Origin: Chiloscyllium plagiosum
Taxonomy: Eukaryota
DNA length: 64,000 bases
Reading direction: 5' to 3'
NCBI RefSeq assembly: GCF_004010195.1
Contig: NC_057752.1
Location: forward strand, 1,805,976-1,869,975
Below are positions 14,413 through 53,556 of the stretch, one piece after another. Both the position numbers and the translations under genes were made by a program. Positions within the stretch are counted from its first letter, which is position 1, and every line of letters begins with the position of its first letter. The notes under the pieces are model-generated. The model searched no databases and was not told the DNA's origin. It worked only from the letters and a program-made list of their open reading frames with translations.

Positions 14413-16820
14413 CGGACTCTCAGCACTGATAAGTTTGTCCCCCTCTCCCATATTTATACAGTACTGTACAAATGCACAAAGACTGTCATTTTGCAGATTT
14501 ACATGTCAGTGAAAAGGAGTGTTCCTGTCCAATTTGATGCAGTCGCACTAATTGGTCCTCATCTGTCAATTGATAACCATGGCAGACCAAAGAGACTTCA
14601 ATCTCCAATAGATAATGCACGCCTTGCAACTGAAGCACCGATTTAATTTAACACTGTACAGTACCATACACTAAAGGTTACTAACAGTAATTGTTGCTGC
14701 TGAAGGTAGATTTTTCCTTAAAAATTCAGTAGACATGAATTCAGTGTCTATACTCATGAAACAGGTCCCAAGCGACGAGACCAGCAAACAGTAATGTCAA
14801 CCAGATTTTAGCTTTCAATGAACATGGCATCACGCGGCACTCTAAGGATACGGGCACCAGATGTGGCACCTCTGTATAATGTCTGGGGCAGGAAGGCTCT
14901 CTGAATTTCTCTACCCGCCTGCCCAACACCAAGACCTGACACAGTGCAAGCCAATTACTGCAACTGTCAGCCGCCCAAAAGCATCCTGACTCTGCAAGAC
15001 TTAATCTCCAAAATAATTGGCCATTACAGAAATGAGGTTCTCATGGTTTCGTGGTGCAAGAATAGAGCATCTGACTCTCAATCAAAAAATTGCGTGCTTG
15101 AGCAACAAGGGCTCTTGCGGTGTAGTGGTAGTGTCCCTACCTGGAGGCCTTGGGTTCAAGTCCCACCTACTCCAGAGGTGTGCAATCATATCTGTGAATA
15201 GGTTTGTAGAAAAATATGTGGAAGCGATGGACTTGTGTAATAATGTGAGCACAGCTGTGAGGTAACATCAAAGTGGACATTTGAAGCATATATTTTTTTA
15301 AAAAAACTTTGAAGGTGCCAAATTAAAAGTAACAACTGAGAGCCTAGTCCTGTTCATCAGCCTGTTTCAGAATACGCTTCTGAAACATCCTCGATGTGCT
15401 GAGACATTCAAGTGCACAGATTCATTCAGGGGTGAGAGAAGCAAACAGAACACTGTATCTCTGTAACAGGAGCCATAACTGTATGTTTCTGATTACCACA
15501 GTGAAACCTTTTCAGGCTTGGTGTCCAGTTAAGACTGGATTGATTTGACTTGAAGAGGCAGTCACTCCAACTGGATTTCCCTCCAGCCTCAATGTTCATA
15601 CAACCCATAGGGGGAGGGGAAGGATTATTTTAACATTTACCAGATTTCAATCACTGCCCATTTCAAAGGAATTTTGGAGCGTGGTGACAAAGCAGATTGT
15701 GGACACTTCCTTAACCTACAGCCTCACTTCATGGTTCACTTCAGAGTTGGACAAGTGGAAGCTTGGTGTCATTTGCACATGTACTGCAAAGGCTGTTAAT
15801 CCCTTCATTACGCTGAGGGGAAGAGATGGAGAGAGAAACAGCAACTCCAAAACACAGAGAGCAAACAGTGGACATCACTGCAGGTCTTACAGAGAAAGGA
15901 GGGTCTCAGAGTAGAATATTGACCGAGGGTCTCAACTGAAACCTCAAAGTACATCTTCCTTTTTCATACCTGCTGTATTTTCGAGCATTCCTGTTTTTGA
16001 ATATACTTGAAACACTGTGGTCTTCTGGTAATGAAGATATAACTGAATCCTCATACCTCAATTCACATTCATCAGAAGGGAGCTCTGACTTTGACTAAAC
16101 CATCTAGTTTGTGTGGTAGCCTTTATTACGTTCAGTTTTAGTCTCTGATAAAAATGACTTTCTTCTTAAAAAGAAGTAATGGATTAGGATTCACTGTCAG
16201 CATCACTGATCTCCACACTCTTGTGTTGCATCTGTACCGACAGGCCAAACACTGGCCTTAGCCCCATAGCGTTCTGTCAGTAAGTTGTCTGGCAATATAT
16301 AACGGGCCTGTAGTGTCACCTAGGAGATGCCAATGTCATTGAAGTACTGAAAGTGGGCAGTTACCAGCCTGTTTGATGATGTGTTTTAGATGCTTAGAGT
16401 CATCAGTCAGGTCCTGAGAGTGGCCATTTTGAGTTCATGCTGCAGAACAGCTGTTACCCAAAGGACTTCAACAAAAAAGAAAGAGATTTCGATTACATGG
16501 GCACATGCTGACACAGGAGTCAGCAATGGGGGAAACACTGAAACAACCATGTGTGGAGGGAGACTCTCAACATGGATGAGTTGATAGGCCACAGGCTGTA
16601 CCATCCTGTTTATGAAGTGAGCCAGGAACTGGAGTGAGTTGGCAACAGCAATTTTACACCACGCACCCTTGAAAAGAATGAAATCAAGACTACTATCGTT
16701 AGTTTTACCAACACATTGAGGTTGATTTACTAAGTTTGGCTAATGGTCTTTTAAAAATAATTCGTTGTTCAACCCCTCAAATCATTCATTTACCTTTGAT
16801 GACAAGCTGAGTAAGATTCC

Positions 16821-16984
16821 ACATTGTTAAAAGGAGACATGAAATTGAATCTTTCTGTCTTGCCCTTATCAGGGCTGACATGTAAAAAATCCACCCAAAG
16901 ATTGCCTTTTTAGAAGTTGACTTCTTGCATTTCAAGTCCAATGAGTGCAAAAAGATTCAATTCCATGTCTCCTTTGAACAATGT
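16821..16984. repeat. 164-bp foldback (inverted repeat, arms 32/34 identical)
   Basis: ACATTGTTAAAAGGAGACATGAAATTGAATCTTT (16821-16854) versus the reverse complement of 16951-16984, ACATTGTTCAAAGGAGACATGGAATTGAATCTTT. Confidence 0.9.
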
Positions 16985-19316
16985 TTAAGTTCTGTCTTGC
17001 CAAGCAATTATTAATAAGGTTCCTTTATTTTTCCTTACACTCCTGAAAACCAGTAGTTTAATCCTATACAGTATCATGGACTCACGCAGTCCTTTACTCT
17101 ATACTGTTCCACTATTAGTTATCATCTTTGAAGTGTAGCCTCAATATATCCTGTCACAGTCAAATACGCAACTTTAGCCCAAACTTGCTCACAGAATGCC
17201 TTCCTGATCTGGGCGGCTGAATGGAGGTTAGAGAAATGTGGGAGAGAAAGAGAAAATAGAGATCATGGCAGAGGAGAGGGCAAAAACAGAGAAAGAGAGA
17301 GACCATAACATGAGTGCATCATCTTTACTCTCATATTAGCTACTAACGGACTGAGAGATGTGCTTGTCTCGAGGTGACCTCACTTACTGGGAGGAGAGGG
17401 AACGGTAGGCGGGAGAGGACGGACTCAAGATATTTCATATCTCCTCATGTACCTCTTCACCCAAAAGCCCATCTTCCCTGAAGTGTTCTGCAAGATTGTC
17501 CAGGTGATTATACTTGTGATAGGCAGTTTAATGTGACACAAGTGTCAGATACAAATCAATGGGGACAAGGCTACCAAGGCTGAATCTTGAAACAAGTCCC
17601 AGACACTTTGGTGGAATTGGTAAAGGGTCAGTTTGAAAGCACTTCCTCCTGTAAGAAGGTTTCTCTTTCATGTCTCAGACCTGGGTTCTACTGAGCAAAG
17701 TCTGCGCTCACATTCTCACCTCAGAACATAACAGAACAAAGTGCTTTTGCTGTGATGGAAATGGGGACATATTTGCCTGTCAAACCGTAGTCCGTTGGAA
17801 GATGATAATAGAAGGCGACTCCATCCATCCACTGGCCTACCCCAGGTTTAGGAAGGCAATGTACAGAAATGTAGTGATGTCAACTTGTGCAAATCTTTGA
17901 ACACAGTGGGAGAATTGGTACTCACTGTTGGAAACCTGTTCCCATTCCTGCAGTGGCAGGGACAGTTAGTTCAATCAACTCACCCTATAATGAACTGGAT
18001 CAGAAGCACACATGAATTGGGAGTGGTGTGGTGGTAGCGTCCTTAGTTCGAAGACTAGGTGTCCTGGGTTCAAATCCCACCAGCTTTGTTTTCCCCTCTA
18101 CCTAGAAATGCTACTACATACCTCTGGATGCTTTTTTTAAAAAACTACCAACCATGTTTCTCATTATAAAAAAACTCAGCTCCTCAGGGCACTGTGACAA
18201 CAGCAAAAGGAGATAGAGAGGGAGAGGACTAAATTCACACAGAGTTAGAGGGGGTTGTAAAGGGTGCTAATGGATCCTGAGCACTGGAATAACAACTCTA
18301 TAACTGGCTGATGAGAAAAGGGTGATGCTGATTGGATGAGATGAATGGGGCTGGGGTGAGTGAAATGGCATTGACCGATTGGAGTTGGGCCGAATGCCCA
18401 TTTTTGTGTCAGTCTGTATCCTCGCTGTTTGTGGAGTCTTGCTGTGCTCCCCCTAGCCGCTGCAGTAACCAACTGCGATATCCCCCCCCCCATAGGCCTG
18501 AAACGCCACCAAGCCATTCACAGGGTGATGAGGTAGCAAGCGCCCCGTCAAACACAGGTTCTCACCTTCCAAATGTTCACTATTTCTTTCAGACGGCCAC
18601 TTGATTTTCAACATGTCGCCCTGGCCTCTGAATGCCCTAGTCTGTGAGTTAACCCTCCAGGCTCCAGGCTGCTGCCCAAGCACGTTAGCATCAACGTGTC
18701 TCAGGGAGTCAGCAACAGAACAGTCAGACACACGCTGAATTGAGTTGGTTGCATGAGTCAACAGGTCTCAGCTTGCTCTACATGTTATCAATACTGAAAC
18801 CATCAACTCAGGACATCTGTCAGGGAACCCCCTTTTGAGTGCAACATATGCTGGCTGAGAATGAGAAAACTCTATTGTCAGCTTGATAATGGAATAGGGT
18901 TGAAATTCCTGCTTTCCCTCAGAAATATTACACTGAACTTGGAAACCCAAATGATCATCTGATCCCTTCAACAGATATCAGAGTCAAGGCAGGATAGTGG
19001 AAGCGTGGTTTGGCGGGTGGGGAGAGGGGTTCATTATTTGTGGAACTGACTCGTACAAATGACACCAAGTCTGTTAGTGGTTCGGTCGCTGGCACCAGCA
19101 AAGTCTGAAGGGCACGCAAACATCGCAGCAGAAAGTTCTCCAGTGGCAGTTTTGGGTTCGGATGCAAATTTTGTAGCTCCCACTGTCTCAAAACGTCACC
19201 TTGTTCATTTTCAGTGCAGCTGGTTGTTGCTATAATCAGAAACATACGTGGTTTATGTTTGGGGTGGGGTTTTTTTTTTAGGCCGCATTATTAAAGTATA
19301 CAAAAATAAATAAGGT

Positions 19317-19475
19317 TCATGAGTAGCCATCACTGTCAATCCAGTGAGTCATCCATTCCTTCTGATATCGCGTCTTTTTCTCATCCATGTGGAGCTGTCG
19401 CTGTTCTTTGCCAATCCGCACGGCGTGGTATTGTGGGACGGTGTCATTGTAACGGGAACGCTTAAAAAATCCACA
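19317..19475 (-). CDS. ITGA7: Integrin alpha (alpha-6/7 type) terminal exon, B-type cytoplasmic tail CGFFKRSRYNDTVPQYHAVRIGKEQRQLHMDEKKTRYQKEWMTHWIDSDGYS*
   Basis: Acceptor (CT)11GTGTGGTTTGCAG, phase 0 with the TM exon. GFFKR motif and the B-tail signature VPxYHAVxI; TGA at 19319-19317. Family call is strong; ITGA7 versus an ITGA6-like paralogue is less certain. Confidence 0.9.
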   Translation of the reverse strand, partial: CGFFKRSRYNDTVPQYHAVRIGKEQRQLHMDEKKTRYQKEWMTHWIDSDGYS

Positions 19476-19488
19476 CTGCAAACCACAC

Positions 19489-19510
19489 AGAGAGAGAGAG
19501 AGAGAGAGAG
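19489..19510. repeat. (AG)11 microsatellite forming the polypyrimidine tract of the integrin terminal exon
   Basis: Directly visible, 12 nt from the acceptor AG (19477-19476). Confidence 0.9.
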
Positions 19511-20329
19511 CATTTATTTTTGTCTCCGAAATGTGGTACATTCCTAACCAGTCTCGACACCAAGGCCATGGGCTGCTCTTGGTTTCATATAATGCAACAC
19601 ATTGCTTCAGATGCAGCACTCCCAAGCTCCCCCCTTGAATAGCTGTAGTTAAGGGGAGGTGGAGGCCTATCATAACAGGGGAATCCAAGTTCAAATCTCA
19701 CCTAAAGCAGATCATGCAATTTGCATTAAATAAATAGTCTTTAATTACAAATCTAATGATTGCTGTTAAAATCCCACCTGGTTCACTAATCTCCCTTTAA
19801 AGAAGGAAATCTACTCATCTGACTGACATGTATCCATCGATGTGGTTGACCCTTAACTGCCCTCTGGGCAATAAATGCTGTCCATGTTCCCCAACGGAAT
19901 TTTAAAAGGAAGCTCCGCACTATCCAGCGCTGCATGGAAGAGGCCATTCCTCAGCTGCAGTCTCAAACATGGAGTGTCAGCCTGGAGCTTGATTATGGGC
20001 AGCTCAAAGCCAAGCTGAACCAAACCCATTGACAATTTCCCAGCATGCTTTTCTCCCATCCTGCCTCAAGGCCCCATTAGCCACACGGGCTACAGCAGCA
20101 GTAAGGAAGGGAGGAGTTTCCCTCCTGAGGCATTTGTTTGATTTGGGGCACACTCCATTTCTTTTTCTTTCTGAAATACATTTGGCAGTTGTGAAATATT
20201 CTTGAGAAGTCACAAGCTGGTTAGGGCTATCACAACTAAGGCCACCAGTTCTTTGTTGGAGCAGTCTGCTTATTGGGAAATGAGCTGGAATTCATTGAGG
20301 TTCTAGGAGAGCATTGCCTGGACGTCCCA

Positions 20330-20470
20330 GTTCATTGTCCCCCATGCTAGCTCCTGACCAGATCAGGCCCATTGTCCCCAGTGGCAGCTCCTGACCATCA
20401 GGCCCATTGTCCCCAGTGGCAGCTCCTGACCAGATCAGGCCCATTGTCCCCTGTCCCAGCACTTGACCAG
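20330..20470. repeat. Minisatellite, about 3.5 diverged copies of a 37-bp unit (same unit as 21373-21643)
   Basis: Repeated GCTCCTGACCAGATCAGGCCCATTGTCCCC. Confidence 0.85.
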
Positions 20471-20554
20471 GTTAAGCCTGCAATGGGAAAAAATGCAAGG
20501 CCCATTTTGGATGCCGGGGCTGGTCAGAGTTGTCTAAAGGACTTATATCATCCT

Positions 20555-20750
20555 GAGTCAAAAAGTGTGGGGCTGGAAAAGCACAGCTGGTCAGGCAGTA
20601 TCCGAGGGGCAGGAGAGTCAACATTTCGAGCATTAGCTCCGGCCTGAAACGTCAACTCTCCTGCCCCTCGGATGCTGCCTGACCTGCTGTGCCTTTCCAG
20701 CGCCACACTCTCAGCTCTGATCTCCAGCATCTGCAGTCCTCACTTTCTCC
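20555..20750. mobile_element. Palindromic Penelope-type element (two inverted terminal fragments)
   Basis: GCTGGAAAAGCACAGCTGGTCAGGCAGTATCCGAGGGGCAGGAGAGTCAACATTTC is followed by its near reverse complement GAAACGTCAACTCTCCTGCCCCTCGGATGCTGCCTGACCTGCTGTGCCTTTCCAGC. Confidence 0.7.
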
Positions 20751-21372
20751 TTATCTCGTCCTGCACCCACCTAAACTGACACCAGTCAAAAGGCGGAAAC
20801 TCATAACAAATTCTGCCACTGCGGAAGTCCCACTTTCCTTGAGCAGCCATTGGAAGATACACGTGTCTAATGTTTCGAGGCAGGTGGGTACTGTGGTGGG
20901 ATTTGGGAGAGCGAATGGTGGAGCACAGGGTATCATCCCAGTACGTGAATGGGAAGTCCCTGTTCTTGGGGGTCATCTCCATGGAGACAGCGAGCTGTGA
21001 GAACTGGCCAATGAAGAGTTGGGTGAGTCTGTAGCCTCGACTGTGGCTGATCTCCACACACCATCACTGACTGGTAACCAGCGCCTCTCGCCTACCCCCC
21101 TCGGAAATAAGCAAGCTCAGCACAAACGAGGGCTCAAACACACGGCCTGGTCTATGTGTGGCTTCAATTAACATCAGGCGTGACTTCCAGCCAATATAAA
21201 AGTAAAATCCTGCAGATGCTGGAAATCCAAAACAGAAACAGAATGTGCTGGAGAAGCTCAGCAGGTCTGCGGAGAGAGAAACAGAGTTCACGTTGCAAGT
21301 CTGATATGACCTCTTTTAGCTGCAAGGTCATGAGGGGAGCTACAATCTCTTTCTGATAACCATTTTGTCTGA

Positions 21373-21643
21373 GCTCCTGACCAGGTCAGGCCCATTGTCC
21401 CCCGTGCCAGCTCCTGACCAGGTCAGGCCCATTGTACCTTGTGCCAGCTCCTGACCAGGTCAGGCCCAATGTCCCCGTGCCAGCTCCTGACCAGGTCAGG
21501 CCCATTGTCCCCTGTGCCAGCTCCTGACCAGGTCAGGCCCATTGTCCCCCGTGCCAGCTCCTGACTAGGTCAGGCCCATTGTCCCCCATGCCAGCTCCTG
21601 ACCAGGTCAGGCCCATTGTCCCCTGTGCCAGCTCCTGACCAGG
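21373..21643. repeat. Minisatellite, 7 full copies plus a partial copy of a 37-bp unit with internal palindrome CCTGACC-A-GGTCAGG
   Basis: Unit starts at 21373, 21410, 21447, 21483, 21520, 21557, 21594, 21631. Confidence 0.95.
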
Positions 21644-21699
21644 AAGCTCCTTTCCTGAGCTCTTTATTTTACACTCTGCCTCTTCTTGCACAGCAGAGA

Positions 21700-22085
21700 C
21701 AGAGTTGCTTTTATATAGCTTGTTTTACAACCACCGGACAACTCAAAGTGCTCTGCCGCCAATTAGACATTTTTTTTAAGGCACAACAAGCCTTGTCATG
21801 CAGGAAATGTAGCAGCCGACTTGCGCACAGCAGGCTCCCATGGACTGTAACAGTGATCAGATCATCTCCTTTTTGGGATATTTATTGACGGATTGAGGCC
21901 CTCAGGGAGAGCTCCCCCTGCTGTATTAATCTTTTATATCCACCCAAGCAAGGAGATGGGGGGGCCTCCATGTAACAGTTATCCCAAAGCTAGTATCTCT
22001 GACAGTGCGGCACCTCTTCACTCCTGCACTTAAACCTCCCCCAGCCCTGAAGTGGGACCTCAACCAGGAACGATGTTTTCAAGAG
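21700..22085 (-). mobile_element. Old Deu-domain SINE (SacSINE1-like)
   Basis: Reverse complement contains GTGCCGCACTGTCAGAGA...GGTGGATATAAAAGAT...GGGAGCCTGCTGTGCGCAAGTCGGCTGC...GCTATATAAAAGCAA. Confidence 0.6.
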
Positions 22086-22124
22086 ACAAGAGCAACCGAC
22101 TCACTCTTGACGACGCAAAGCAGA

Positions 22125-23035
22125 TAAGGTGCTCAGCAGTAGCAGTTCTGCCTTGAAGTCACAATGTTGTAGGTTCAAGTCTGTTCTGCTGATTCGAATA
22201 CATGCCTGCTCTACCACTGACAGCACTGAGGTGCTCAGGGAGTGCTGCACTGTCAAGAGATACTCTTTATTTTTAGGCAAGAGGTGGAATCAAATTCCCA
22301 TTTGCCACATTCCATGCGTGGTTAAAGATCCTGTGGTGCTATTCTGAAAAATACACAGGTTCAATATTTGTATCTGAATCAATTGTAAAAGCAGATGTTT
22401 ATTTTTCACTTGTGGGATGTGGGTGTCACTGGCTGGGCCCAGCTTTTATTGCCCTGTCCCTAGTTGCCCCCTTGAGAAAGTGGGGGTGAGCTGCCTTCTT
22501 GAACCGCTGCAGTCCATGTGCTGTGGGTTGACCCACAGTGCCCTTAGGAAGGGAATTCCAGGATTTTGACCCAGTGACACTGAAGGAAGGCTGCTATATT
22601 TCCAAGTCAGGATGGTGAGTGGCTTGGAGGGGAACTTGCAGGGAATGGTGTTTCCCTGTATCTGCTGCCCTTGTCCTTCTAGATGGAAGTGGTCATGGGT
22701 TTGGAAGGTGCTGTCTGAGAATCTTCGGTGAATTACTGCAGCGCATCTTGTAGATGGTACACACTGCTGCTACTGAGCGTCGGTGGTGGAGGGAGTGGAA
22801 GCTTATGGATGTGGTGCCAATCCAGTGGGGGCTGCTTTGTCCTGGATGGTGTTGAGCTTCTTGAGTGTTGTTGTAGCTGCCCCCATCCAGGCAAGTGGGG
22901 AGTATTCCATCACACTCTTGCGGTGCCCAAATTGGCTGCCCTGTTTCCTACATTCATACAGTCACTATATTTCATTGGCTTGAAAGCACTTTGGGAAATC
23001 CTGGCATTATTCACTAGCCTATCTTTTTTCTCATG
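22125..23035 (+). mobile_element. Deu-domain SINE split by a minus-strand LINE insertion (22408-22915)
   Basis: 5' half GGGAGTGCTGCACTGTC...GTTAAAGATCCTGTGGTGCTATT. The 3' half resumes at about 22916 with CTTGCGGTGCCCAAATTGGCTGCCCTGTTTCCTACATT...AAAGCACTTTGGGA. Confidence 0.6.
22408..22915 (-). mobile_element. 5'-truncated copy of the LINE family at 2127-5126
   Basis: Reverse complement matches about 4615-5110 (GAATACTCCCCACTTGCCTGGATG...GGGCAATAAAAGCTGG). Confidence 0.85.
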
Positions 23036-23516
23036 AAGAAGTTCAATATAGTTCTTAGGGCTAAAGGGATCAAAGGTTATGGAGAGAAAGTGGGAACAGG
23101 GCACTGAGTTGGATGGTCAGCCATGATCATATTGAATGGTGGTGCAGGCTCGAAGGGCTGAATGGCCTCCTCCTGCTCCTAGTTTCTGTTTCTATGTCTC
23201 CTTGAGACTCCTAGCCCACCCCAGATGCCAAATCTGCTCCGAGTTCACGTTCTCTGAGAGAGTTTGGACAGTGCCATTCTTCTCCCTAACTCCTATTGGG
23301 ATGACATTGTGCATCATGGTGGATGATCCATGCCTGTTCCCTCGCTAATCGAGCTGGAGGACATTACACAGAGATAAGGAGTCTGGTGCACGTTCAAGGA
23401 TTGTAGCTGAAAGCAACCTAGGGAGACCTGAGGAAGATAGCAAGGGAGGGCAGACAGAAACCGAGGCAGTGTTCATCATTCTCAAAACAGGAAGTGTTGC
23501 TGCGGTGACCTTCCTT

Positions 23517-23700
23517 CATGCAAACTGAAACAAGATGGCCGCCACACCCGAAAGGCCAGCAGGAAAGGGGAGACAGACAAACTGATCTAATTGTTTCAAA
23601 GAAAGTGAAAGATGCACAAGCATTTGGGAAGACAAGTGTCTAATACCACAGGGATAAAAATACTCAAATCAAACATGCTGCATGCAGAGCATCTCATGCT
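23517..23700 (-). promoter_or_regulatory. RBFOX (U)GCAUG cluster in the intron downstream of alternative exon A
   Basis: Sense-strand GCATG at 23699-23695, TGCATG at 23686-23681, GCATG at 23678-23674 and TGCATG at 23522-23517. Confidence 0.55.
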
Positions 23701-24504
23701 AGTCTTGTTGTGCACACACCACACACACATTCAGGTGAGGGGCAAAAGGACAGCATCACAGAAATGAACTGAAGAGCATGGGTACCACACAGTGCAAACC
23801 ATTCCATTCCTGCCATCATTATAGAAACTAGGGGGAAATGGGAGGGTGGGGAGGTGGTGTAAGGATTATTCTCTGAGCACGTCACATTGAATATTTCAAC
23901 TGAGGCCTCGCCTCAGGATGTAAAGCGTTGGGCTGGAAGATTGAATCGGTTTGGGCTCTGGATTTACTTGGTAGATAGCCACCAACCCCAGCCCTCACCA
24001 AAAACAAAACCCTCTTGATATTATTGAGTTCAAAGCCTTGTGGCACCAAGCATTGAATTGAGGAGGTCTCGGGAAAGTGAGGCAAGGTCTGGTGACCCAA
24101 CACAAGGTTGATCGAAGAAGCAAAGCAGAGACTCAAAGGAGCTGCAAGCAGCAGTTTTACAGGCCGAAGCAAGCTGGCCCCACCTGAGTTGGAGCATCTT
24201 TGAGTCTCATTGGAATGTGGGCTGGATGAGCTTCACTTGTTGTCAACTGTTTGACACTCACCCAGTTGTTCAGTGTGACTGGCTTGTTCATCATTTCAAA
24301 GGGAGGTTGCAAAATGTGCTTAGTATAAGGAACAACGCCAGTTCTATGTCAATACTTGAGACTTATTGATAATCCTTACACACCTCCAACATCCAAGCGC
24401 TCGGTGCCCGTGCAGAAACACACACTATATCCCACTGGCACTACCACAGCAACCTTGGACTGGGCACAGGCCTGTTGCTACAATTACCGCTGCAGATGCC
24501 AGCA

Positions 24505-24615
24505 TTATGCTTCGGTGGCCTGTTTCTCCTGGTCGGAAGGCTGGGTTTGAAGATGAGCCCTGTGATATTCAGTTTCATACTGAGATTCTTTGTTCGTTCT
24601 CTTGAAGAAACCGCA
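24505..24615 (-). CDS. ITGA7: Integrin alpha alternative cassette exon (full exon 24615-24488, 128 nt), A-type tail CGFFKRTNKESQYETEYHRAHLQTQPSDQEKQATEA*
   Basis: Acceptor TTGCTTCCTTGTAG, GFFKR, A-tail signature YHxA...QPS, TAA at 24507-24505, donor GCG|GTAATT 17 nt after the stop. Absent from the ORF track. Confidence 0.9.
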   Translation of the reverse strand, partial: CGFFKRTNKESQYETEYHRAHLQTQPSDQEKQATEA

Positions 24616-25389
24616 CTACAAGGAAGCAATGTTTGTCCAGCGTTACGACAGGTCAAGCAAATTGGGACGGGTGAAGGTGGCACCCGCATCGGGGTTGGGG
24701 TGGTGGGGGGGGTCGTGGGTGTGTGCCAGGGTTCAGGAATGCAGCCAAGGGATGAGAAATCAGAAGGCTATGCAACCCCTCTTGGTGCACTGTCTTTAGG
24801 TCAGAGGCCTGAGGGAGGCCATGTTTTTTACTGGTTTCAACAATGCAGATTATTTATTGCTGCATATTGGCATTCTTACGTCAATGTGACAGTCGGTTCC
24901 CTCCATCCTGTAAAGCGTTTGGCAGGAATTTCTGAACCCAGCAGGCACCCATGCCAACATCTTAAGCCACTGAGTTTGCCCCTTATTTGACACGATACAG
25001 GATGACCCTTCCAGTCCATTTTGCAAGCATCACCCTCCTTCATAACCACTGATAGAGATTTTCACCAATCTCTGGAGAAAGTTCCCTCTGTGTGTTCGAC
25101 GGTGTAAAATTCCACTTACAACGAATGATTTTGCAATTCCCACACAGCGAAGCGAGGAAGTTTAACCCTTCACTGTTCAAGAATTGCAACTGCATGTTAA
25201 ATACATGTGAAACTGAAGTTTGTAGTTCAGCAAACTGATTTGTTGACCTTACTTCCAAACTTATCACAAGGTCACAGCAAATTGTAACCAAACATTTACC
25301 AGTCTCATGCCCCAGGCCGTGCAAGTCAAAGACTGGGCAACAATACCAAAGTGAAAAGTTTCACCTTGGCGCTCTCTTGGTGCCAAGCT

Positions 25390-25745
25390 CCCCACTCGGA
25401 GAACAGGGATAGAGTACTAAAAGCAAGGAAGTTACGATCAATCAGGAGAAAACACTGGGTTGGACTTGGTTGGAGTATTGCAACTAGTTTTGGGCATCTA
25501 CACTTTAGGCAGAATGTGAAGACACCAGAGACGGTACAGCATGGATTCGAGAGAATGGTCTCAAGGATGGGGAGTTTCAGTTACGTCGGTAGTCTGAAGA
25601 AATTGGGGCGATTTGTCTTTGCGAAGGTGAAGAGGAGATTGGATCGAGGTGTTCAAAATCACAAGGGGTCTGGACGGAGGGGACAGGGAGAAACTGTTCT
25701 CAGTGGTGGAAGGATCAAGAAGTAGAGGGCAGAGATTTAAAGTCC
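25390..25745 (+). mobile_element. Old CR1 LINE fragment
   Basis: FERMVSRMGSFSY..LKKLG and FKITRGLDGGDREKLF..VEGSRSRG.RFK. Confidence 0.75.
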
Positions 25746-26704
25746 AGAGTCAATGTTGGGAACTCCCAGGGCAACTGCTTCCTGATTGGATGCAATGGTG
25801 CCACCCCCTGTGCCAACGGGATAGGATATGCCCAGGGATGGTGATGGTGTTGTGTGGGGCATTGTCAATAAGGTATTAATCTTGCAGAGTGTGCCATGAC
25901 TGAGTCCTTCAGTATATTCAAGGTTGGGAGAGACAGATGTTTAATCCGTATGGGAATTGAGGGTCGTGGGAAAACAGTAGGAAAGTGGAGTTGAGGACTG
26001 TCATATCAGCTGTGATCTCATTGAAGGATGGAGCAGACTCAATGGGCTGAATGGCCATCTCCTGCTTCCACGTCTTATGGTCCCATGCTTCCATGAGTAT
26101 GACGATGTCAAAGCTGTTGCTGTGAGACATTGAGTTCCATTGAGAATCCCAAATGTCAGTGCATGTCCTGCCTTTGTTGATGCCTTATGTAAGTTGATGC
26201 CAGGCTTTATGCTTGATCACCCTTCCACAGGGTAACTGGGAATGGTCAGCAATGTTAACATGGTTCGTACCTCAACAAATAAAACAAATACTCTTTCCAC
26301 CGATCTTTAACACCTGAGAAAGATCAGTGGGAAGAATTCAATTTCAGCACTGTGCGACCTAATAAAGTTCATCTGCTGGTGTCTAAAGATGGAAATACAT
26401 CGATCAATAGAACCACAAAAATCGACTGCCACACCCCAGTATAATCGAGCAGAAATAGCATCAGGTTGAGTTCATTCCCAGCGCTTGGGACAAACATTTA
26501 TAATTGTGCCAAATGTAAATGAGACCAGTGGTTTTATTTTGTTGGAACAGTACATCAAAGTCAAGCAGGTAACTGCAAAAACAAAACATTTTAATATATG
26601 TTTCAACCCGACAGGGCAAGCAACAAAGTCAAAAGTGGTCTGAATTGATTTAAATCAAAGCCCTGCAGTTAAGGAGTGATCTTTTCTATCAGATCCACAC
26701 TTAC

Positions 26705-26830
26705 CTTCCAAAGGAGAAGCACAAGGAGAGCCAACACTAGGATCCCTGCCAGGACAGCAATGAGTATAATCAACCAGGGCGCTCCGACATATCCCACACT
26801 CGTCTTCTCTGGGTATATTTGTATGGTAAA
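26705..26830 (-). CDS. ITGA7: Integrin alpha transmembrane exon FTIQIYPEKTSVGYVGAPWLIILIAVLAGILVLALLVLLLWK
   Basis: Acceptor CTCTTTAATCTCTCCAG, donor AAG|GTAAGT, 126 nt, phase 0. Integrin TM pattern PWxII.AVLAG.L.LALLV..LWK. Absent from the ORF track. Confidence 0.93.
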
Positions 26831-27661
26831 CTGGAGAGATTAAAGAGGAGACCAGTTATTGTAAATACGTGCTCGCACAATCAGAATCCAGCTTGCCATA
26901 TTCTGCTTCTGTGTGTTAGGTCACCAAAACAGTCTCTGGAAACGCCGCAGGACGACCTGGTCACAGATACTGATCACAGCAGCCACCTTGCCATTTCTTG
27001 TCCTCCAGCTCAGGAGGACACTGCAGCTGGAGGTCCTTACACCTGCAGTACCTTCTTATCTCCACAAGGGCATTTCTGACGGTGGGGCAAAAGTGGAAGA
27101 GGAGGAGGTGAGGGATGAGGGGAAGGTGTGGGGGACTTGTGGAGGTGTGAGGAAGGAGGGGCAACAACTGACGGATGGCGATCAGTGAGCTGCTGAAGCT
27201 TGAGAAAGCTTTCCTAGCTCCCCATTGAAAAGCAGGGGAAGTGAGGGGAAAGCTGGCTTCACTTCTTAAAATTGGCCTTTTCTTGCGGTTACATTTTCAG
27301 TATGTCTTGCCAAGCTCATGGCTGGTGGCCCAAGGAGATGAATTTCTGATGATCTGTGTTTCAACCCTTGAAAGCCTTATTGGCGGCGATGCTATGGCAC
27401 ATGTTCCCATAAGACAGTGCATCACGAGTAGGCCATTCAGCCCATCAAGAGTCCTCCACCATTCAATGAGATCACGGCTGATTGGATCATCCTCAACTCC
27501 ACTTTCCTGCCTTTTTCCCATTAACCCTTGATTCCCTCACTGATTGTTGTCCTAGCATAGCGTCAGACAGCCCTGTGGCCCTGCCTTGAAATATTCCAAA
27601 ATATGGCAATAGATTGTGTTGAAGCCTTGAGTAAAGGTGAAATTGGGAATGGTGTCAGTAC

Positions 27662-27760
27662 CTCAGCAGCAGCTTCCTTCACCTTCAGGTTTCGGATGCT
27701 TGACTTCACGCTGATGTTCGCACGGATGGTCAGCTTGATGGAACTGTATGAAGCATATTC
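27662..27760 (-). CDS. ITGA7: Integrin alpha calf-2 exon EYASYSSIKLTIRANISVKSSIRNLKVKEAAAE
   Basis: Acceptor AATTTCAG, donor GAG|GTACTG, 99 nt, phase 0. RANISVKSSIRNL closely resembles recalled mammalian ITGA7 RANITVKSSIKNL. Confidence 0.88.
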
Positions 27761-28121
27761 CTGAAATTTTAACAAGAGGGTTTTTTTTCCGATAAAGCCA
27801 GTTCATCATGTCCCCCTTCCCCAGTCCATGCACTCCTGACTACGATCAGCAGGCTGAGGTATAGTATTCACAGCCCCACAACTTCAGACACCTGAAGTTG
27901 TTTGAAGATGGGCTTTTAGTCGCTCAGCAGCTCACTACCCTGCACCCTGGAGCTGCCCAGTCAGGTGACCTCCAACACATATACAGGGACACCTCACACA
28001 AAGAGGGTCACACTCAGCAATCGGAACATGGCCGCCATTTTCTCTCTTGAGCCCCTCAGAGCAACGGAGGTCAGCAGCCCTGTACACAGTAGGATGTGTA
28101 CAAGTTCCTTTTTTTAAAATT

Positions 28122-28704
28122 ATTCAGGGGACATGGGCGTCACTGGCTGGGCCCAGCCTTTATTGCCCCGTCCCTAGTTGCCCCTTGAGAAGGTGGGGGG
28201 TGAGCTGCCTTGTTAAACCGCTGCAGTTCACCAGCTGTGGGTTGACCCACAATGCCTTCAGGGAGGGAATTCCAGATGGTCATTGCCTGGCATTTATGTG
28301 GCATGAATGTTACTTGCCACTTTTCAGCCCAAGTCTGGATATTGTCAAAATCTTGTTGCATTTGAACATGAACTGCTTCAGTATCTGAGGTGCTGAACAC
28401 TGTGCAATCGTCAGCAAATGTCCCCACCTCTGACCTTATGATGGAGGGAAGGTCATTGATGAAGCAGCTGAAGATGGTTGGGCCTAGGACACTACCCTGA
28501 GGGAGTCCTGCCGAGATGTCGGGAGCTGAGGTGACTGACCTCCAACAACCATGACCTTTGTGCCAGGTATGACTCCAACCAGCGGAGAGTTTGCTTCCAA
28601 AACCCATTGATTCCAGTTTTGCCAGGGCTCCTTGATGCCACTCCCCTCTGGAATTCAGCTCTTTTGTCCATGTTTGAACCAAGGCTGTAATGAGGTCAGG
28701 AGCT
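28122..28704 (-). mobile_element. Internally deleted copy of the LINE family at 2127-5126 (RT core spliced to 3' end)
   Basis: ORF 28140-28736: TALVQTWTKELN..., GLPQGSVLGP, FADD, then a jump to WNSLP...FNKAAH. Confidence 0.85.
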
Positions 28705-29091
28705 GGGTCACTTAAATGCCCTTGGCTCTTGCCCAATAAGGTGCCTTAAGTTCAACCCCAAAGAAGGTTTACCCGAATGATATGATGCTTCAGATTTGAC
28801 AATGTCATGTCAAGGAGGAATACAAGAGGACAGTAGTCGGCTCCTCATGCCTGTTCTGCCCTTCAAACTGGATCTTGAGTGATTTTTCACCTACCCACCT
28901 TGATGCTGTAACCTTCAATAATAACAATTTTGGCCAGTTTTAAACTGTAGCATTATGGTCACCAGGAATTTGATTGAAGCTCGTCCAACTCTACTCCCTT
29001 GATGAACCTCACCAATAGCAGAGCTAAAGCCCTCACTTCCATCAAACTGCCATTAAGTAAATCTCATCACACAACTGGTGGGATAGCTCAC

Positions 29092-29205
29092 CTCCAGAAA
29101 GGTGCTGTTCCACAGTCGAGCACCTATTTTCATTCGGGTTGTTGTGTTGAGAATTTGGAGAGGACACTGGAAGTCAACACATCTGGCAGTGCCCAGTTCA
29201 CAGTC
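29092..29205 (-). CDS. ITGA7: Integrin alpha calf-2 exon DCELGTARCVDFQCPLQILNTTTRMKIGARLWNSTFLE
   Basis: Acceptor TTTCCCCACAG, donor GAG|GTGAGC, 114 nt, phase 0. Conserved C..C.CP and RLWNSTFLE of alpha-6/7. Confidence 0.93.
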
Positions 29206-29564
29206 CTGTGGGGAAATGATGTTCAAGATTAGAGTCCAAATCAATTTGCAAATGGAGGATATGTGACATTTAATCCTGGGTATTCTAATGGAACAACTGT
29301 GTGCATTTGGCATCGCTCTAAGGAGTCTTGGGTTAATCCTTGGACAACTTGACCATCCTGCCTGCTCATGTCGTGCCATGCAACATTTGCAGAGCTGAGA
29401 TGGAGAAATGGGAACAAGGCGTGAGCAAGGCCAATCAAAACCAGCAGCGTAGAATTTCCAGCAGTAACTGGTGACAGGGCTCTCCTCATGTCAGGACAGT
29501 TCTGTAATCGCCAAACAAGGAAACAAACTCAGGAGAGGGATTTCACATTTCAATTGAAACCCAT

Positions 29565-29830
29565 TCCTAATCCCCGACCCTCCATCAAAGACCATCCCTC
29601 TAACCCCCTGACCCTCCATCGAAGACCATCCCTCTAACCCCCTGACCCTCCATCGAAGACCATCCCTCTAATCCCTAACTCTCCATCGAAGACCATCCCT
29701 CTAATCCCTAACTCTCCATCGAAGACCATCCCTCTAACCCCCTAACTCTCCATCGAAGACCATCCCTCTAATCCCCTGACCCTCCATCGAAGACCATCCC
29801 TCTCATCCCTTAAATTTCCATTGAGGACCA
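29565..29830. repeat. Minisatellite, about 8 copies of a 33-34-bp unit (TCCATCGAAGACCATCCCTCTAA...)
   Basis: TCCAT starts at 29581, 29615, 29649, 29682, 29715, 29749, 29783, 29817. Confidence 0.95.
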
Positions 29831-29984
29831 TTTCTCTTGTCTCTTGACTCTCCATCAAAGCTTACCTCTCTGGTTCTGTGAATTGCCCAATAATCCCCTT
29901 CCCTCCTGTACCTTGACTGTCCAATCTAGAAGGGAACGTTACCCCCTGCAACTTCCCCTCTCAGCCATTCATAATCTCGACTGG

Positions 29985-30190
29985 GATAAAAATTGGCGTT
30001 TCTTCACTGTCGCTGGGTAAATATCCTGGAATTCCCTCTCTCATGGGATTGTGGGTCTACCTACAGCACATGGACTGCAGAAGTTCAAGAAGGCAGCTCA
30101 GCCCCACCTTCTCAAGGGGGGCAACTAGGGACGGGGCAATAAATGCTGGGCCCAGCCAGTGATGAGCACATCCCAAGAATGAATACAAAA
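29985..30190 (+). mobile_element. 3' end of the LINE family at 2127-5126
   Basis: CCTGGAATTCCCTC...GGACTGCAG..GTTCAAGAAGGCAGCTCA...GGGCAATAAATGCTGG. Confidence 0.8.
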
Positions 30191-30374
30191 TAAGAACCAG
30201 TTTCTGCCAAAACAGGGCTGATTAAAGTGGTCTTTGAATCAGGAAAGCACAGAAGAAGGCTATTCGGCCCCTTAATCCATGCCAGCCCTCTGAGAAGCAA
30301 TCCAATCAGTCTCATTCTCCCACTGTATCCCTGGAGGAAGTTTGTTTCCCTGAGGTTCATCCGATTTCGAAAGC

Positions 30375-32265
30375 TGATTGGGGGCAGATGGTCGCAGGTA
30401 AAGGGACGGCTGGAAAATGGGAAGCCTTCAGAAATGAGATAACAAGAATCCAGAGAAAGTATATTCCTGTCAGGGTGAAAGGGAAGGCTGGTAGGTAGAG
30501 GGAATGCTGGATGACTAAAGAAATTGAGGGTTTGGTTAAGAAAAAGAAGGAAGCCTATGTCAGGTATAGACAGGATAGATCGAGTGAATCTTTAGAAGAG
30601 TATAAAGGCAGTAGGAGTCTACTTCAGAAGGAAATCAGGAGGGCAAAAAGGGGACATGAGATAGCTTTGGCAAATAGAATTAAGGAGAATCCAAAGGGGT
30701 TTTACAAATACGTTACGGACAAAAGGGTAACTAAGGAGAGAATAGAGCCCCTCAAAGATCAGCAAGGCGGCCTTTGTGTGGAGCCACAGGAAATGGGGGA
30801 GATACTTAAACGAGTATTTTGCATCAGTATTTACTGTGGAAAAGGATATGGAAGATATAGACTGTAGGGAAATAGATGGTGACATCTTGCAAAATGTCCA
30901 TATTACAGAGGAGGAAGTGCTGGATGTCTTGAAACTGTTAAAGGTGGATAAATCCCCAGGACCTGATCAGGTGTACCCGAGAACTCTGTGGGAAGCTAGA
31001 GAAGTGATTGCTGGGCCTCTTGCTGAGATATTTGTATCGTCGATAGTCACAGGTGAGATGCCAGAAGACTGGAGGTTGGCTAATGTGNNNNNNNNNNNNN
31101 NNNNNNNNNNNNNNNNNNNNNNNNNNNNNNNNNNNNNNNNNNNNNNNNNNNNNNNNNNNNNNNNNNNNNNNNNNNNNNNNNNNNNNNNNNNNNNNNNNNN
31201 NNNNNNNNNNNNNNNNNNNNNNNNNNNNNNNNNNNNNNNNNNNNNNNNNNNNNNNNNNNNNNNNNNNNNNNNNNNNNNNNNNNNNNNNNNNNNNNNNNNN
31301 NNNNNNNNNNNNNNNNNNNNNNNNNNNNNNNNNNNNNNNNNNNNNNNNNNNNNNNNNNNNNNNNNNNNNNNNNNNNNNNNNNNNNNNNNNNNNNNNNNNN
31401 NNNNNNNNNNNNNNNNNNNNNNNNNNNNNNNNNNNNNNNNNNNNNNNNNNNNNNNNNNNNNNNNNNNNNNNNNNNNNNNNNNNNNNNNNNNNNNNNNNNN
31501 NNNNNNNNNNNNNNNNNNNNNNNNNNNNNNNNNNNNNNNNNNNNNNNNNNNNNNNNNNNNNNNNNNNNNNNNNNNNNNNNNNNNNNNNNNNNNNNNNNNN
31601 NNNNNNNNNNNNNNNNNNNNNNNNNNNNNNNNNNNNNNNNNNNNNNNNNNNNNNNNNNNNNNNNNNNNNNNNNNNNNNNNNNNNNNNNNNNNNNNNNNNN
31701 NNNNNNNNNNNNNNNNNNNNNNNNNNNNNNNNNNNNNNNNNNNNNNNNNNNNNNNNNNNNNNNNNNNNNNNNNNNNNNNNNNNNNNNNNNNNNNNNNNNN
31801 NNNNNNNNNNNNNNNNNNNNNNNNNNNNNNNNNNNNNNNNNNNNNNNNNNNNNNNNNNNNNNNNNNNNNNNNNNNNNNNNNNNNNNNNNNNNNNNNNNNN
31901 NNNNNNNNNNNNNNNNNNNNNNNNNNNNNNNNNNNNNNNNNNNNNNNNNNNNNNNNNNNNNNNNNNNNNNNNNNNNNNNNNNNNNNNNNNNNNNNNNNNN
32001 NNNNNNNNNNNNNNNNNNNNNNNNNNNNNNNNNNNNNNNNNNNNNNNNNNNNNNNGTGTATTGAATGAGCTGCCAGAGGAAGTGGTGGAGGCTGGTACAA
32101 TTGCAACATTTAAGAGGCATGTGGATGGGTATATTAATAGGAAGGGTTTGGAGGTATATGGGCCGGGTGCTGGCAGGTGGGACTCGATTGGGTTGGGATA
32201 TCTGGTCGGCATGGACGGGTTGGACCGAAGGGTCTGTTTCTGTGCTGTCCATCTCTGTGACTCTA
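30375..32265 (+). mobile_element. Young CR1 (HER1-like) LINE, 5'-truncated, with a 968-N gap (31088-32055) across the RT
   Basis: WMTKEIEGLVKKKKEAY, IKENPKGFYKY, LNEYFASVFT, KVDKSPGPD, PEDWRLANV; 3' end NELPEEVVEAGTI.TFKRH and tail TTGGACCGAAGGGTCTGTTTC. Confidence 0.92.
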
Positions 32266-32470
32266 ATTTCCTTTTGAAGTCTGTGGAAGGGGTAAGTGCT
32301 CTGCCTATCTGCTGTATGGAGTGTTGTGAATGAACTGATGGGGAAACTGGGCTGGTTCCTGTGTCTTCCTTTGCTGGAAGCAGGTTTACCAGATTAACGG
32401 GCGGCGCCTGAAATATGCCAGGCCGGGCCTGTGGGCAGGAAGAGCGCGGTTGATATTTCAGGCCTGTTAC

Positions 32471-32578
32471 CAGGGTCAGAGTCTTCTTGCTTTCTGCCTG
32501 ATGAACTACTGATTGGTGTTGACCTCCGTTCTGTAACCTCTCAGGGCTCCACAACACTGGGTTATCCCCATCGCGTGG
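32471..32578 (-). CDS. ITGA7: Integrin alpha calf-2 loop exon PRDGDNPVLWSPERLQNGGQHQSVVHQAESKKTLTL (position of the heavy/light chain cleavage loop)
   Basis: Acceptor TTGTTTCTTCTGTATTGACAG, donor CTG|GTAACA, 108 nt, phase 0, open frame. Ends AESKKTLTL, like recalled ITGA7 AEKKKNITL and ITGA6 AERKYQTL just before the DC/NC exon. Confidence 0.75.
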
Positions 32579-33740: not shown

Positions 33741-34240
33741 NNNNNNNNNNNNNNNNNNNNNNNNNNNNNNNNNNNNNNNNNNNNNNNNNNNNNNNNNNNN
33801 NNNNNNNNNNNNNNNNNNNNNNNNNNNNNNNNNNNNNNNNNNNNNNNNNNNNNNNNNNNNNNNNNNNNNNNNNNNNNNNNNNNNNNNNNNNNNNNNNNNN
33901 NNNNNNNNNNNNNNNNNNNNNNNNNNNNNNNNNNNNNNNNNNNNNNNNNNNNNNNNNNNNNNNNNNNNNNNNNNNNNNNNNNNNNNNNNNNNNNNNNNNN
34001 NNNNNNNNNNNNNNNNNNNNNNNNNNNNNNNNNNNNNNNNNNNNNNNNNNNNNNNNNNNNNNNNNNNNNNNNNNNNNNNNNNNNNNNNNNNNNNNNNNNN
34101 NNNNNNNNNNNNNNNNNNNNNNNNNNNNNNNNNNNNNNNNNNNNNNNNNNNNNNNNNNNNNNNNNNNNNNNNNNNNNNNNNNNNNNNNNNNNNNNNNNNN
34201 NNNNNNNNNNNNNNNNNNNNNNNNNNNNNNNNNNNNNNNN
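33741..34240. other. 500-N scaffolding gap
   Basis: Exactly 500 N. Confidence 1.
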
Positions 34241-52974: not shown

Positions 52975-52985
52975 TTTCCACAGGT

Positions 52986-53005
52986 CTGAAAGACAACAAA
53001 AGACA
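52986..53005 (-). promoter_or_regulatory. Splice acceptor of the FIGNL2 coding exon (exon starts 52985)
   Basis: TGTCTTTTGTTGTCTTTCAG|ACCTGTGGAAAATG, 11 nt before the ATG; the same layout as recalled for FIGN/FIGNL2. Confidence 0.8.
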
Positions 53006-53556
53006 TTGTGACTGGGAGCTTCAAAGAGCAGAGCATTCAATTGGAACTGCCAGGTTATCCAGTTGCCTGACTGTCAGAGTTGGATGTCCCTAGGTACTTG
53101 CTTTACCCTGAATATGAAACTCCTTGGGTACTACCGATCAGGCACAGGAGCACACAGTTTCAGATATGAGCGCTATTTCGAGATGGAGGTGTTGTTCTCT
53201 CAATGTTCAGTGGCCAACCATCTACCTCACAGGGAACTGAATGACTACCGACAAGGAGAGTCCCAAATTAAGTTCAGCTAAGGGCAGGGCAGGTTATGAC
53301 ATGCAATGCACAATCTATTTACTCGACTTACATTTCCCTACGCTTTCTATCGATATAATTCAAAGGGTTTGGGGAGAAAATGGGAACAGGAGACTGAGTT
53401 AGATGACCAGCTATGACCGTGTTGAATGGTGGAATAGGCTCGAAAGGCCGAATGGCCAACTTCTGCTCCGAAGGCCCATAAGATATATGGCTGACATGTT
53501 TCGCAAAGCCATTCTCCCACCTTCTCCCTGTTCACCCTCGATCCCCTTTTCAATTA

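What the first reader, a model, noticed from the sequence alone, without database searches (positions are those of the whole stretch)
19317..32578. Hidden integrin alpha gene with an ITGA7-like ectodomain but ITGA6/ITGA3-style A and B tails
Seen: six phase-0 exons with canonical AG/GT join into ...AESKKTLTL|DCELGTARCV...RLWNSTFLE|EYAS...AAAE|FTIQ...LLLWK| followed by either of two GFFKR tails. Established (recalled): alpha-3/6/7 have A/B cytoplasmic variants. In ITGA6 the A exon carries its own stop (ending SDA) and B ends W.T.W...YS. In mammalian ITGA7 the A exon reads on, out of frame, into the B exon. Here the extracellular and TM exons match ITGA7 (DC..GTA.CV.F.CPL, RANI.VKSSI.NL, LVLALLVLLLWK), while A stops internally (QPSDQEKQATEA*) and B ends WMTHWIDSDGYS*. 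Inference: either a shark ITGA7 that kept the ancestral tail design, or a fourth paralogue lost in mammals.
Basis: partly seen in the sequence, partly recalled or inferred. Interest (0 to 1): 0.72.

Follow-up and report, generated by a model that had tools for sequence, protein, structure and literature searches.

The report
Shark integrin alpha-7, ancestral-type tails
This is the last six exons of an ordinary shark integrin alpha-7 gene, whose short self-stopping A tail is also found in alpha-7 of fishes, amphibians, reptiles and birds, so it is neither a mosaic nor a lost fourth gene, and mammals are likely the odd ones out.

Summary
All six exons, their AG/GT ends and both GFFKR tails are there. 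Spliced contigs show all six junctions, including 26705>24615, 24488>19475 and 26705>19475. The gene is ITGA7. Its ectodomain groups with bony-vertebrate ITGA7 at 100/100; trees placing it with ITGA6, or outside ITGA6+ITGA7, are rejected (p-AU about 1e-8). The genome has three such loci: this one, an ITGA6 (C7) and an ITGA3 (C33). BLOC1S1 lies head-to-head with exon 1. The tails are not ITGA6/ITGA3-specific: all 25 A tails among 170 bony-vertebrate ITGA7 proteins end within 32-38 aa, from coelacanth to chicken; 104 of 128 non-mammalian B tails carry W-x-T-x-W. The shark A tail itself groups with ITGA7 A tails (97/96). RefSeq already annotates both forms in related sharks. The gene looked 'hidden' because its 5' exons lie about 150 kb away on the opposite strand, while one transcript contig spans both parts: a likely scaffolding error. 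The mammalian read-through was not tested on sequence here.

The parts
32471..32578 (-). ITGA7 coding exon (membrane-proximal ectodomain, residues 898-933 of P0002); first ITGA7 exon in the window
   Evidence: AG/GT, 108 nt; tblastn; loose end of contig X15 at 29206 matches its end
29092..29205 (-). ITGA7 coding exon, Integrin_A_Ig_3 domain
   Evidence: PF20806 E 5e-9; joint in 3 of 4 runs
27662..27760 (-). ITGA7 coding exon, last fully extracellular exon
   Evidence: 99 nt, AG/GT; both joints in 3 of 4 runs
26705..26830 (-). ITGA7 transmembrane exon; its donor is spliced to either A or B
24488..24615 (-). cassette exon A: 36-residue tail, stop at 24507-24505, 17 non-coding nt, donor
   Evidence: X15 contig covers exactly 24488-24615, joint to 26705 and loose end into exon B; same tail in RefSeq isoforms P0022, P0026
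19317..19475 (-). last exon, coding part: 52-residue B tail and stop; read as 3' UTR in the A form
   Evidence: 100% identical to the tail of P0002; loose ends in X1 and X15
14615..19316 (-). inferred 3' UTR of about 4.7 kb
   Evidence: inference: X1 contig has 4861 nt after the TM exon, which would end near 14615 if unspliced; ATTAAA at 14647.
33741..34240 (.). 500-N scaffold gap 1.2 kb upstream of the first exon; likely edge of the misoriented piece
   Evidence: the 5' part of the gene ends about 65 bases before another 500-N gap (L022:3742-4241)

Best explanation
These are the last six exons of this shark's ITGA7 gene, spliced in two ways, and the product likely works as the alpha-7 chain of a laminin-binding integrin. 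Skipping the 128-nt cassette exon joins the transmembrane exon to the last exon and gives the 52-residue B tail (shown). Including it gives a 36-residue A tail that stops inside the cassette, and the B exon becomes 3' UTR (shown). The stop lies 17 nt before the last junction, so the A mRNA should escape nonsense-mediated decay (inferred from the 50-nt rule, recalled). This design is shared with the ITGA6 and ITGA3 of the same genome (all three stop at exon nt 109) and with a lamprey gene, so it is likely older than the three paralogues. Mammalian ITGA7 is likely the lineage that changed it. Pairing with beta-1, laminin binding and a muscle role are inferred from orthology.
For: Ectodomain tree, 22 rows x 1025 columns: shark gene plus 3 cartilaginous-fish orthologues sister to 7 bony-vertebrate ITGA7, 100/100; same grouping with 41 rows, SH-aLRT 100. 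AU tests reject shark+ITGA6 (p 2.4e-8) and ITGA6+bony ITGA7 without the shark gene (p 4.2e-8). After 17 cartilaginous-fish proteins, the other 103 of the 120 best hits of P0002 are 99 proteins named integrin alpha-7 and 4 hypothetical or unnamed ones; none is named alpha-6 or alpha-3. One conserved exon finds 3 loci among 13 candidates in G000: C43, C7, C33; C7 falls in ITGA6 and C33 in ITGA3. BLOC1S1 family match at C43:1.386-1.400 Mb (-), head-to-head with exon 1 at 1.531 Mb (+), as in human (recalled). Tandem X1 and X2 exons present, used one at a time or together in RefSeq isoforms of relatives. A tails: 25 of 25 end within 32-38 aa; A-tail tree puts the shark tail with ITGA7 at 97/96. Splicing.
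Against: The 121 columns encoded in the window alone do not resolve the ITGA7 node (open fork); only identity favours ITGA7 (60-74 of about 121 against 35-57 for ITGA6, leaving out the poorly aligned P0231 at 31). The B tail alone is unresolved: 30/52 identical to this genome's ITGA6 B tail, 23-31 of 50-52 to bony ITGA7; neither grouping is rejected (p 0.42 and 0.38). RefSeq names the orthologue 'alpha-6-like' in 2 of the 16 close hits and in one skate isoform. The runs laid are not on record as RNA, and each tail form rests on one contig in one run. No mammalian A-form protein was retrieved, so the mammalian read-through rests on recall plus one paper. Trees used LG+G4; ITGA6 and ITGA3 sampling was thin.
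Confidence: 0.96

Rival explanations
1. A fourth laminin-type integrin alpha paralogue (HoxA-linked), kept in sharks and lost in mammals.
For: Cartilaginous-fish copies form a clade of their own (100/100), as a distinct paralogue would.
Against: That clade is sister to bony-vertebrate ITGA7, following the species tree; the alternative is rejected. G000 has only three loci, so there is no other ITGA7. The gene is on C43, not on the three contigs with Hox clusters (C5, C7, C33). Teleost itga6-like sits inside ITGA6, and searching G000 with it finds the same three loci plus weak single matches on C23 and C1.
Confidence: 0.01
2. ITGA7 whose B exon was overwritten by gene conversion from ITGA6 early in cartilaginous fishes, a true small mosaic.
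For: The shark B tail keeps features of ITGA6B that bony ITGA7B lacks and is as close to ITGA6B (30/52) as to bony ITGA7B; a shark+ITGA6 grouping is not rejected (p 0.38).
Against: An all-ITGA7 grouping fits as well (p 0.42). Codons at shared residues are identical in 13 of 27 against ITGA6, 12 of 24 against ITGA3, and 11 of 26 between ITGA6 and ITGA3: no excess, so no recent conversion. The genes lie on different contigs. Slow evolution of a 52-residue tail explains the likeness.
Confidence: 0.03
3. The opposite orientation of the 5' and 3' halves is real (an inversion allele that breaks the gene in the sequenced animal), so the window holds an orphaned gene end.
For: In G000 the exons for residues 1-843 of P0002 lie on C43 + (1.531-1.684 Mb), one exon on the 1-kb contig C371, and the last six on C43 -.
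Against: Both halves end beside 500-N scaffold gaps. The 8076-nt contig of X1 lies on the 5' exons at its positions 2417-2598 and on the window exons at 2876-3215, leaving 277 nt for two exons of 171 + 108 nt; the 6511-nt contig of X15 does the same. No stop was seen inside the six window exons.
Confidence: 0.02

Closest known systems
ITGA7 of cartilaginous fishes (RefSeq 'integrin alpha-7(-like)', e.g. XP_060677076.1 and XP_060677079.1, Hemiscyllium ocellatum)
   Same: B tail 100% identical; A tail identical to that of isoform X3; X1/X2 exons; 1082-1138 aa models
   Different: A few substitutions in the ectodomain; in G000 the gene is split by the assembly
ITGA7 of non-mammalian bony vertebrates (coelacanth, gar, bichir, sturgeon, cichlids, axolotl, Xenopus, anole, turtle, alligator, birds)
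   Same: One clade; self-stopping 32-38-residue A tail; coelacanth A tail ends in the same six residues as the shark's; W-x-T-x-W in 104 of 128 B tails
   Different: The middle of the B tail has a conserved stretch in bony vertebrates that sharks lack; the T-E-A end is not kept in the tetrapods and ray-finned fishes sampled
Mammalian ITGA7 (alpha7A/alpha7B)
   Same: Orthologue; A/B tails and X1/X2 ectodomain variants (PMC2132957, passages); cassette exon of length 3n+2 (mouse 113 bp, PMC3025562 passages; shark 128 nt)
   Different: B tail 76 aa without W-x-T-x-W in the 13 carnivore proteins seen; A exon reads on into the B exon (recalled; the paper says only that it is out of frame and gives another C terminus)
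ITGA6 and ITGA3 (G000 C7 and C33)
   Same: Same A/B exon design, A stop at exon nt 109 in all three; W-x-T-x-W in the B tail
   Different: Separate clades and contigs; A tails only 13 and 12 of 36 identical to the window's

Membership tests
ITGA7 | Ectodomain groups with vertebrate ITGA7 to the exclusion of ITGA6 and ITGA3 | tested here: met
   100/100; rivals rejected; window-only part unresolved
ITGA7 | Head-to-head with BLOC1S1 in the human 12q13 block (human order recalled) | tested here: met
   PF06320 at C43:1.386-1.400 Mb (-), exon 1 at 1.531 Mb (+); a fidgetin-family gene and POU6F1 also on C43. The 130 kb between BLOC1S1 and exon 1 was not read
ITGA7 | Separate ITGA6 and ITGA3 genes in the same genome | tested here: met
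   three loci, placed by tree
ITGA7 | Alternative X1 and X2 exons in the beta-propeller | tested here: met
ITGA7 | A and B cytoplasmic variants by a cassette exon, each with GFFKR | tested here: met
ITGA7 | Pairs with beta-1, binds laminin, strong in muscle | not testable with these tools
   inferred from orthology; tissues of the runs are not given
ITGA6 | Ectodomain inside the ITGA6 clade | tested here: not met
   p-AU 2.4e-8; the ITGA6 of G000 is on C7, 3.3 Mb from a Hox cluster
Fourth paralogue / teleost itga6-like | Branches outside ITGA6+ITGA7, or with itga6-like, alongside a separate ITGA7 | tested here: not met
   p-AU 4.2e-8; itga6-like nests in ITGA6; no fourth locus
Class I PDZ-binding tail (GIPC ligand, as alpha6A) | S/T-x-hydrophobic at the C terminus, and binding to GIPC | tested here: inconclusive
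   The A tail ends T-E-A, like the S-D-A of alpha6 and S-E-A of alpha5 that bind Xenopus GIPC (PMC2871791, passages); binding not tested

The most novel reading that the evidence does not exclude
The ancestral alpha7A tail, kept in sharks and coelacanth, ends in a class I PDZ motif (T-E-A) and binds GIPC as alpha6A does; the motif decayed in other bony vertebrates, and mammals then lost the stop and built a new alpha7A end from a second reading frame of the B exon, the same frame (carry-over of 2 nt) that the shark exon enters as UTR. The mammalian muscle alpha7A tail would then be a young overprinted peptide.
Probability: 0.4. Interest if true: 0.3.

Novelty: already known. Interest (0 to 1): 0.13.

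Why it matters
Little by itself: the gene and both tails are in RefSeq for related sharks. Two small uses remain. It sets the direction of change: the self-stopping A tail is the old state, so work on mouse and human alpha7A concerns a derived tail, and fish, frog or chick alpha7A may bind other partners. It also marks a likely misoriented scaffold piece on C43 that would break gene models in this assembly. Eight paper searches on alpha-7 tails or integrin evolution listed no study of ITGA7 tail evolution, but the library lacks most subscription papers, including the 1993 descriptions of alpha7A.

Tried and rejected
PDB search with one exon: 0 hits; with P0002 the best hit is the alpha-6 headpiece, and no alpha-7 or alpha-3 chain was listed, so it cannot assign the paralogue. 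A search meant to collect A tails across vertebrates returned 2 shark proteins of 3 candidates. No mammalian A form among 401 stored proteins. No run is on record as RNA; raw-read run X20 laid 0 reads, no test. Window-only tree (P0229 and four outgroups left out; P0231 aligned poorly) and B-tail tree are unresolved. The 41-row tree is a quick search without bootstrap; one search used 22 of those 41 rows. tblastn found no integrin exon in window 33000-64000, explained by the split assembly. A HoxC cluster was not seen on C43; its one homeobox hit is POU6F1 (150 of 412 candidates scored). Pfam scan of 34 other ORF pieces: one AAA ATPase, three retroelement pieces, one weak match under its cut-off. 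No earlier findings near this place. No structure or complex job was run.
Full report
Observation. The six exons are in the sequence as described, on the minus strand: 32578-32471, 29205-29092, 27760-27662, 26830-26705, 24615-24488 (A) and 19475-19317 (B, to the stop). All have AG before them, the internal ones GT after them, and the joined frames run open to the two stops. The A exon is 128 nt, with its stop at nt 109-111 and 17 nt of UTR before the donor.

Splicing. No holder of the last exon is on record as RNA, but contigs of three of four runs laid on 24200-29300 skip the introns at the predicted GT..AG ends. The 6511-nt contig of X15 carries the 29092, 27662, 26705 and A exons in a row; its loose end at 24488 is the start of the B exon and its loose end at 29206 is the end of the 32471 exon. 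The 8076-nt contig of X1 goes from 26705 straight into the B exon. X20 laid no read.

What the gene is. The B tail finds 16 cartilaginous-fish proteins at 85-100% identity: 13 named integrin alpha-7 or alpha-7-like, 2 alpha-6-like, 1 hypothetical. Their clusters hold isoforms with the same A tail. With P0002 as query, the 103 hits after the 17 cartilaginous-fish proteins are 99 named alpha-7 and 4 hypothetical or unnamed. In G000 the family has three loci, on C43, C7 and C33 (a single conserved exon gives 3 matches of 13 candidates). I rebuilt the three proteins from exon matches and made ectodomain trees with proteins. With 41 rows (quick search) and with 22 of them (full search) this gene and its cartilaginous-fish orthologues are sister to bony-vertebrate ITGA7 (100/100); C7 falls in ITGA6, C33 in ITGA3, and teleost itga6-like inside ITGA6. 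Trees that force the shark gene with ITGA6, or outside ITGA6+ITGA7, are about 50 log units worse (p-AU 2.4e-8 and 4.2e-8). The 121 columns encoded in the window alone leave the node open.

Synteny. A BLOC1S1-family gene lies head-to-head with exon 1, about 130 kb away. C43 also carries a fidgetin-family gene, in this window at 50773-53073, with two paralogues on C7 and C5, and POU6F1. That ITGA7, BLOC1S1, FIGNL2 and POU6F1 lie on human 12q13 is recalled, and the name FIGNL2 is by elimination. Hox clusters are on C5, C7 and C33; the ITGA6 and ITGA3 loci share contigs with two of them. Tandem X1 and X2 exons are present; alpha7X1/X2 and alpha7A/B are described in PMC2132957 (passages).

The tails. 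Of 170 bony-vertebrate ITGA7 proteins (P0056-P0225), 25 have an A tail, 141 a B tail and 4 no tail. All 25 A tails end within 32-38 residues: coelacanth, gar, bichir, sturgeon, cichlids, axolotl, frogs, lizards, turtle, alligator and birds. The coelacanth tail ends in the same six residues as the shark's. The shark A tail is 17-26 of 36 identical to these, 13 and 12 of 36 to the ITGA6 and ITGA3 of its own genome, and groups with ITGA7 at 97/96. Of 128 non-mammalian B tails 104 have W-x-T-x-W and 117 W-x-[TSV]-x-W; the 11 without are birds; the 13 mammalian ones (all carnivores) lack it. The B tail alone cannot be placed, and codon identity to ITGA6 is at the background of the other pairs (13/27, 12/24, 11/26). 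All three shark paralogues stop at nt 109 of exon A, and a lamprey protein has the same kind of tail (P0227), so the design likely predates the split of ITGA3, 6 and 7. These A forms are mostly automated gene models.

Mammals. I retrieved no mammalian A form. PMC3025562 (passages) gives the mouse exon as 113 bp, out of frame, yielding another C terminus and specific to skeletal muscle. That it reads on into the B exon is recalled. Both 113 and 128 are 3n+2, so a lost stop would enter the B exon in the frame the shark exon enters as UTR (inference).

Why it looked hidden. Exons for residues 1-843 of P0002 lie on C43 + at 1.531-1.684 Mb, one exon on the 1-kb contig C371, and the window's exons on C43 - (1069 of 1138 residues of P0027 covered by the stretches fetched). 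Both halves end beside 500-N gaps. The X1 and X15 contigs that carry the window exons also carry the last two plus-strand exons, at the spacing a single mRNA needs. A misoriented scaffold piece is the likely cause.

Mechanism. Shown: a cassette exon switches the cytoplasmic tail; inclusion gives a 36-residue tail with its own stop, skipping gives a 52-residue tail. Inferred: the A mRNA escapes decay because the stop is 17 nt from the last junction; the chain pairs with beta-1 and binds laminin; the T-E-A end could bind the PDZ protein GIPC, as the alpha6 and alpha5 tails do in Xenopus (PMC2871791, passages; PMC4043246, passages). That end is not kept in the tetrapod and ray-finned fish A tails sampled.

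Novelty. The gene and both isoforms are already annotated in related sharks. Eight searches listed no paper on ITGA7 tail evolution; I saw listings and the passages named, no supplements, and the original 1993 papers were seen only as references. Verdict: real, ordinary ITGA7; interest 0.13.

Noticed in passing
window 33741-34240; L022:3742-4241; L021: ITGA7 is split in G000: 5' exons on C43 +, one exon on unplaced C371, 3' exons on C43 -. Transcript contigs span the parts, so the piece holding the window's exons is likely misoriented.
   Followed up: yes
window 50773-53073 (-): Uninterrupted 767-codon frame of a fidgetin-family AAA ATPase; paralogues on C7 and C5, so likely FIGNL2. It lies between two 500-N gaps.
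   Followed up: partly
G000:C43 (16.4 Mb): Carries BLOC1S1, ITGA7, a fidgetin gene and POU6F1, a human 12q13 set (recalled). The zebra shark X is homologous to part of human chromosome 12 (10.1101/2022.10.17.512540, passages), so ITGA7 may be X-linked in sharks. Not tested by read depth.
   Followed up: partly
window 24507-24498 and L013 (C33 exon A): The stop of exon A and the 7 bases after it are identical in ITGA7 and ITGA3 of this genome: non-coding letters kept or converged on in two old paralogues, perhaps a splicing element.
   Followed up: no
window 21370-21640 and 20340-20480: Tandem array of a roughly 37-bp unit in the last intron, in two patches; another short array at about 29600-29800 (seen by eye).
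   Followed up: no
window 2920-3300, 4128-4511, 28143-28745: LINE-type endonuclease and reverse-transcriptase fragments; the one at 28.1-28.7 kb draws very many contigs.
   Followed up: no
P0008, P0015, P0046: Sawfish, stingray and one skate isoform of this gene are named 'integrin alpha-6-like' in RefSeq; the first two group with ITGA7, the third shares a cluster with proteins named alpha-7.
   Followed up: yes
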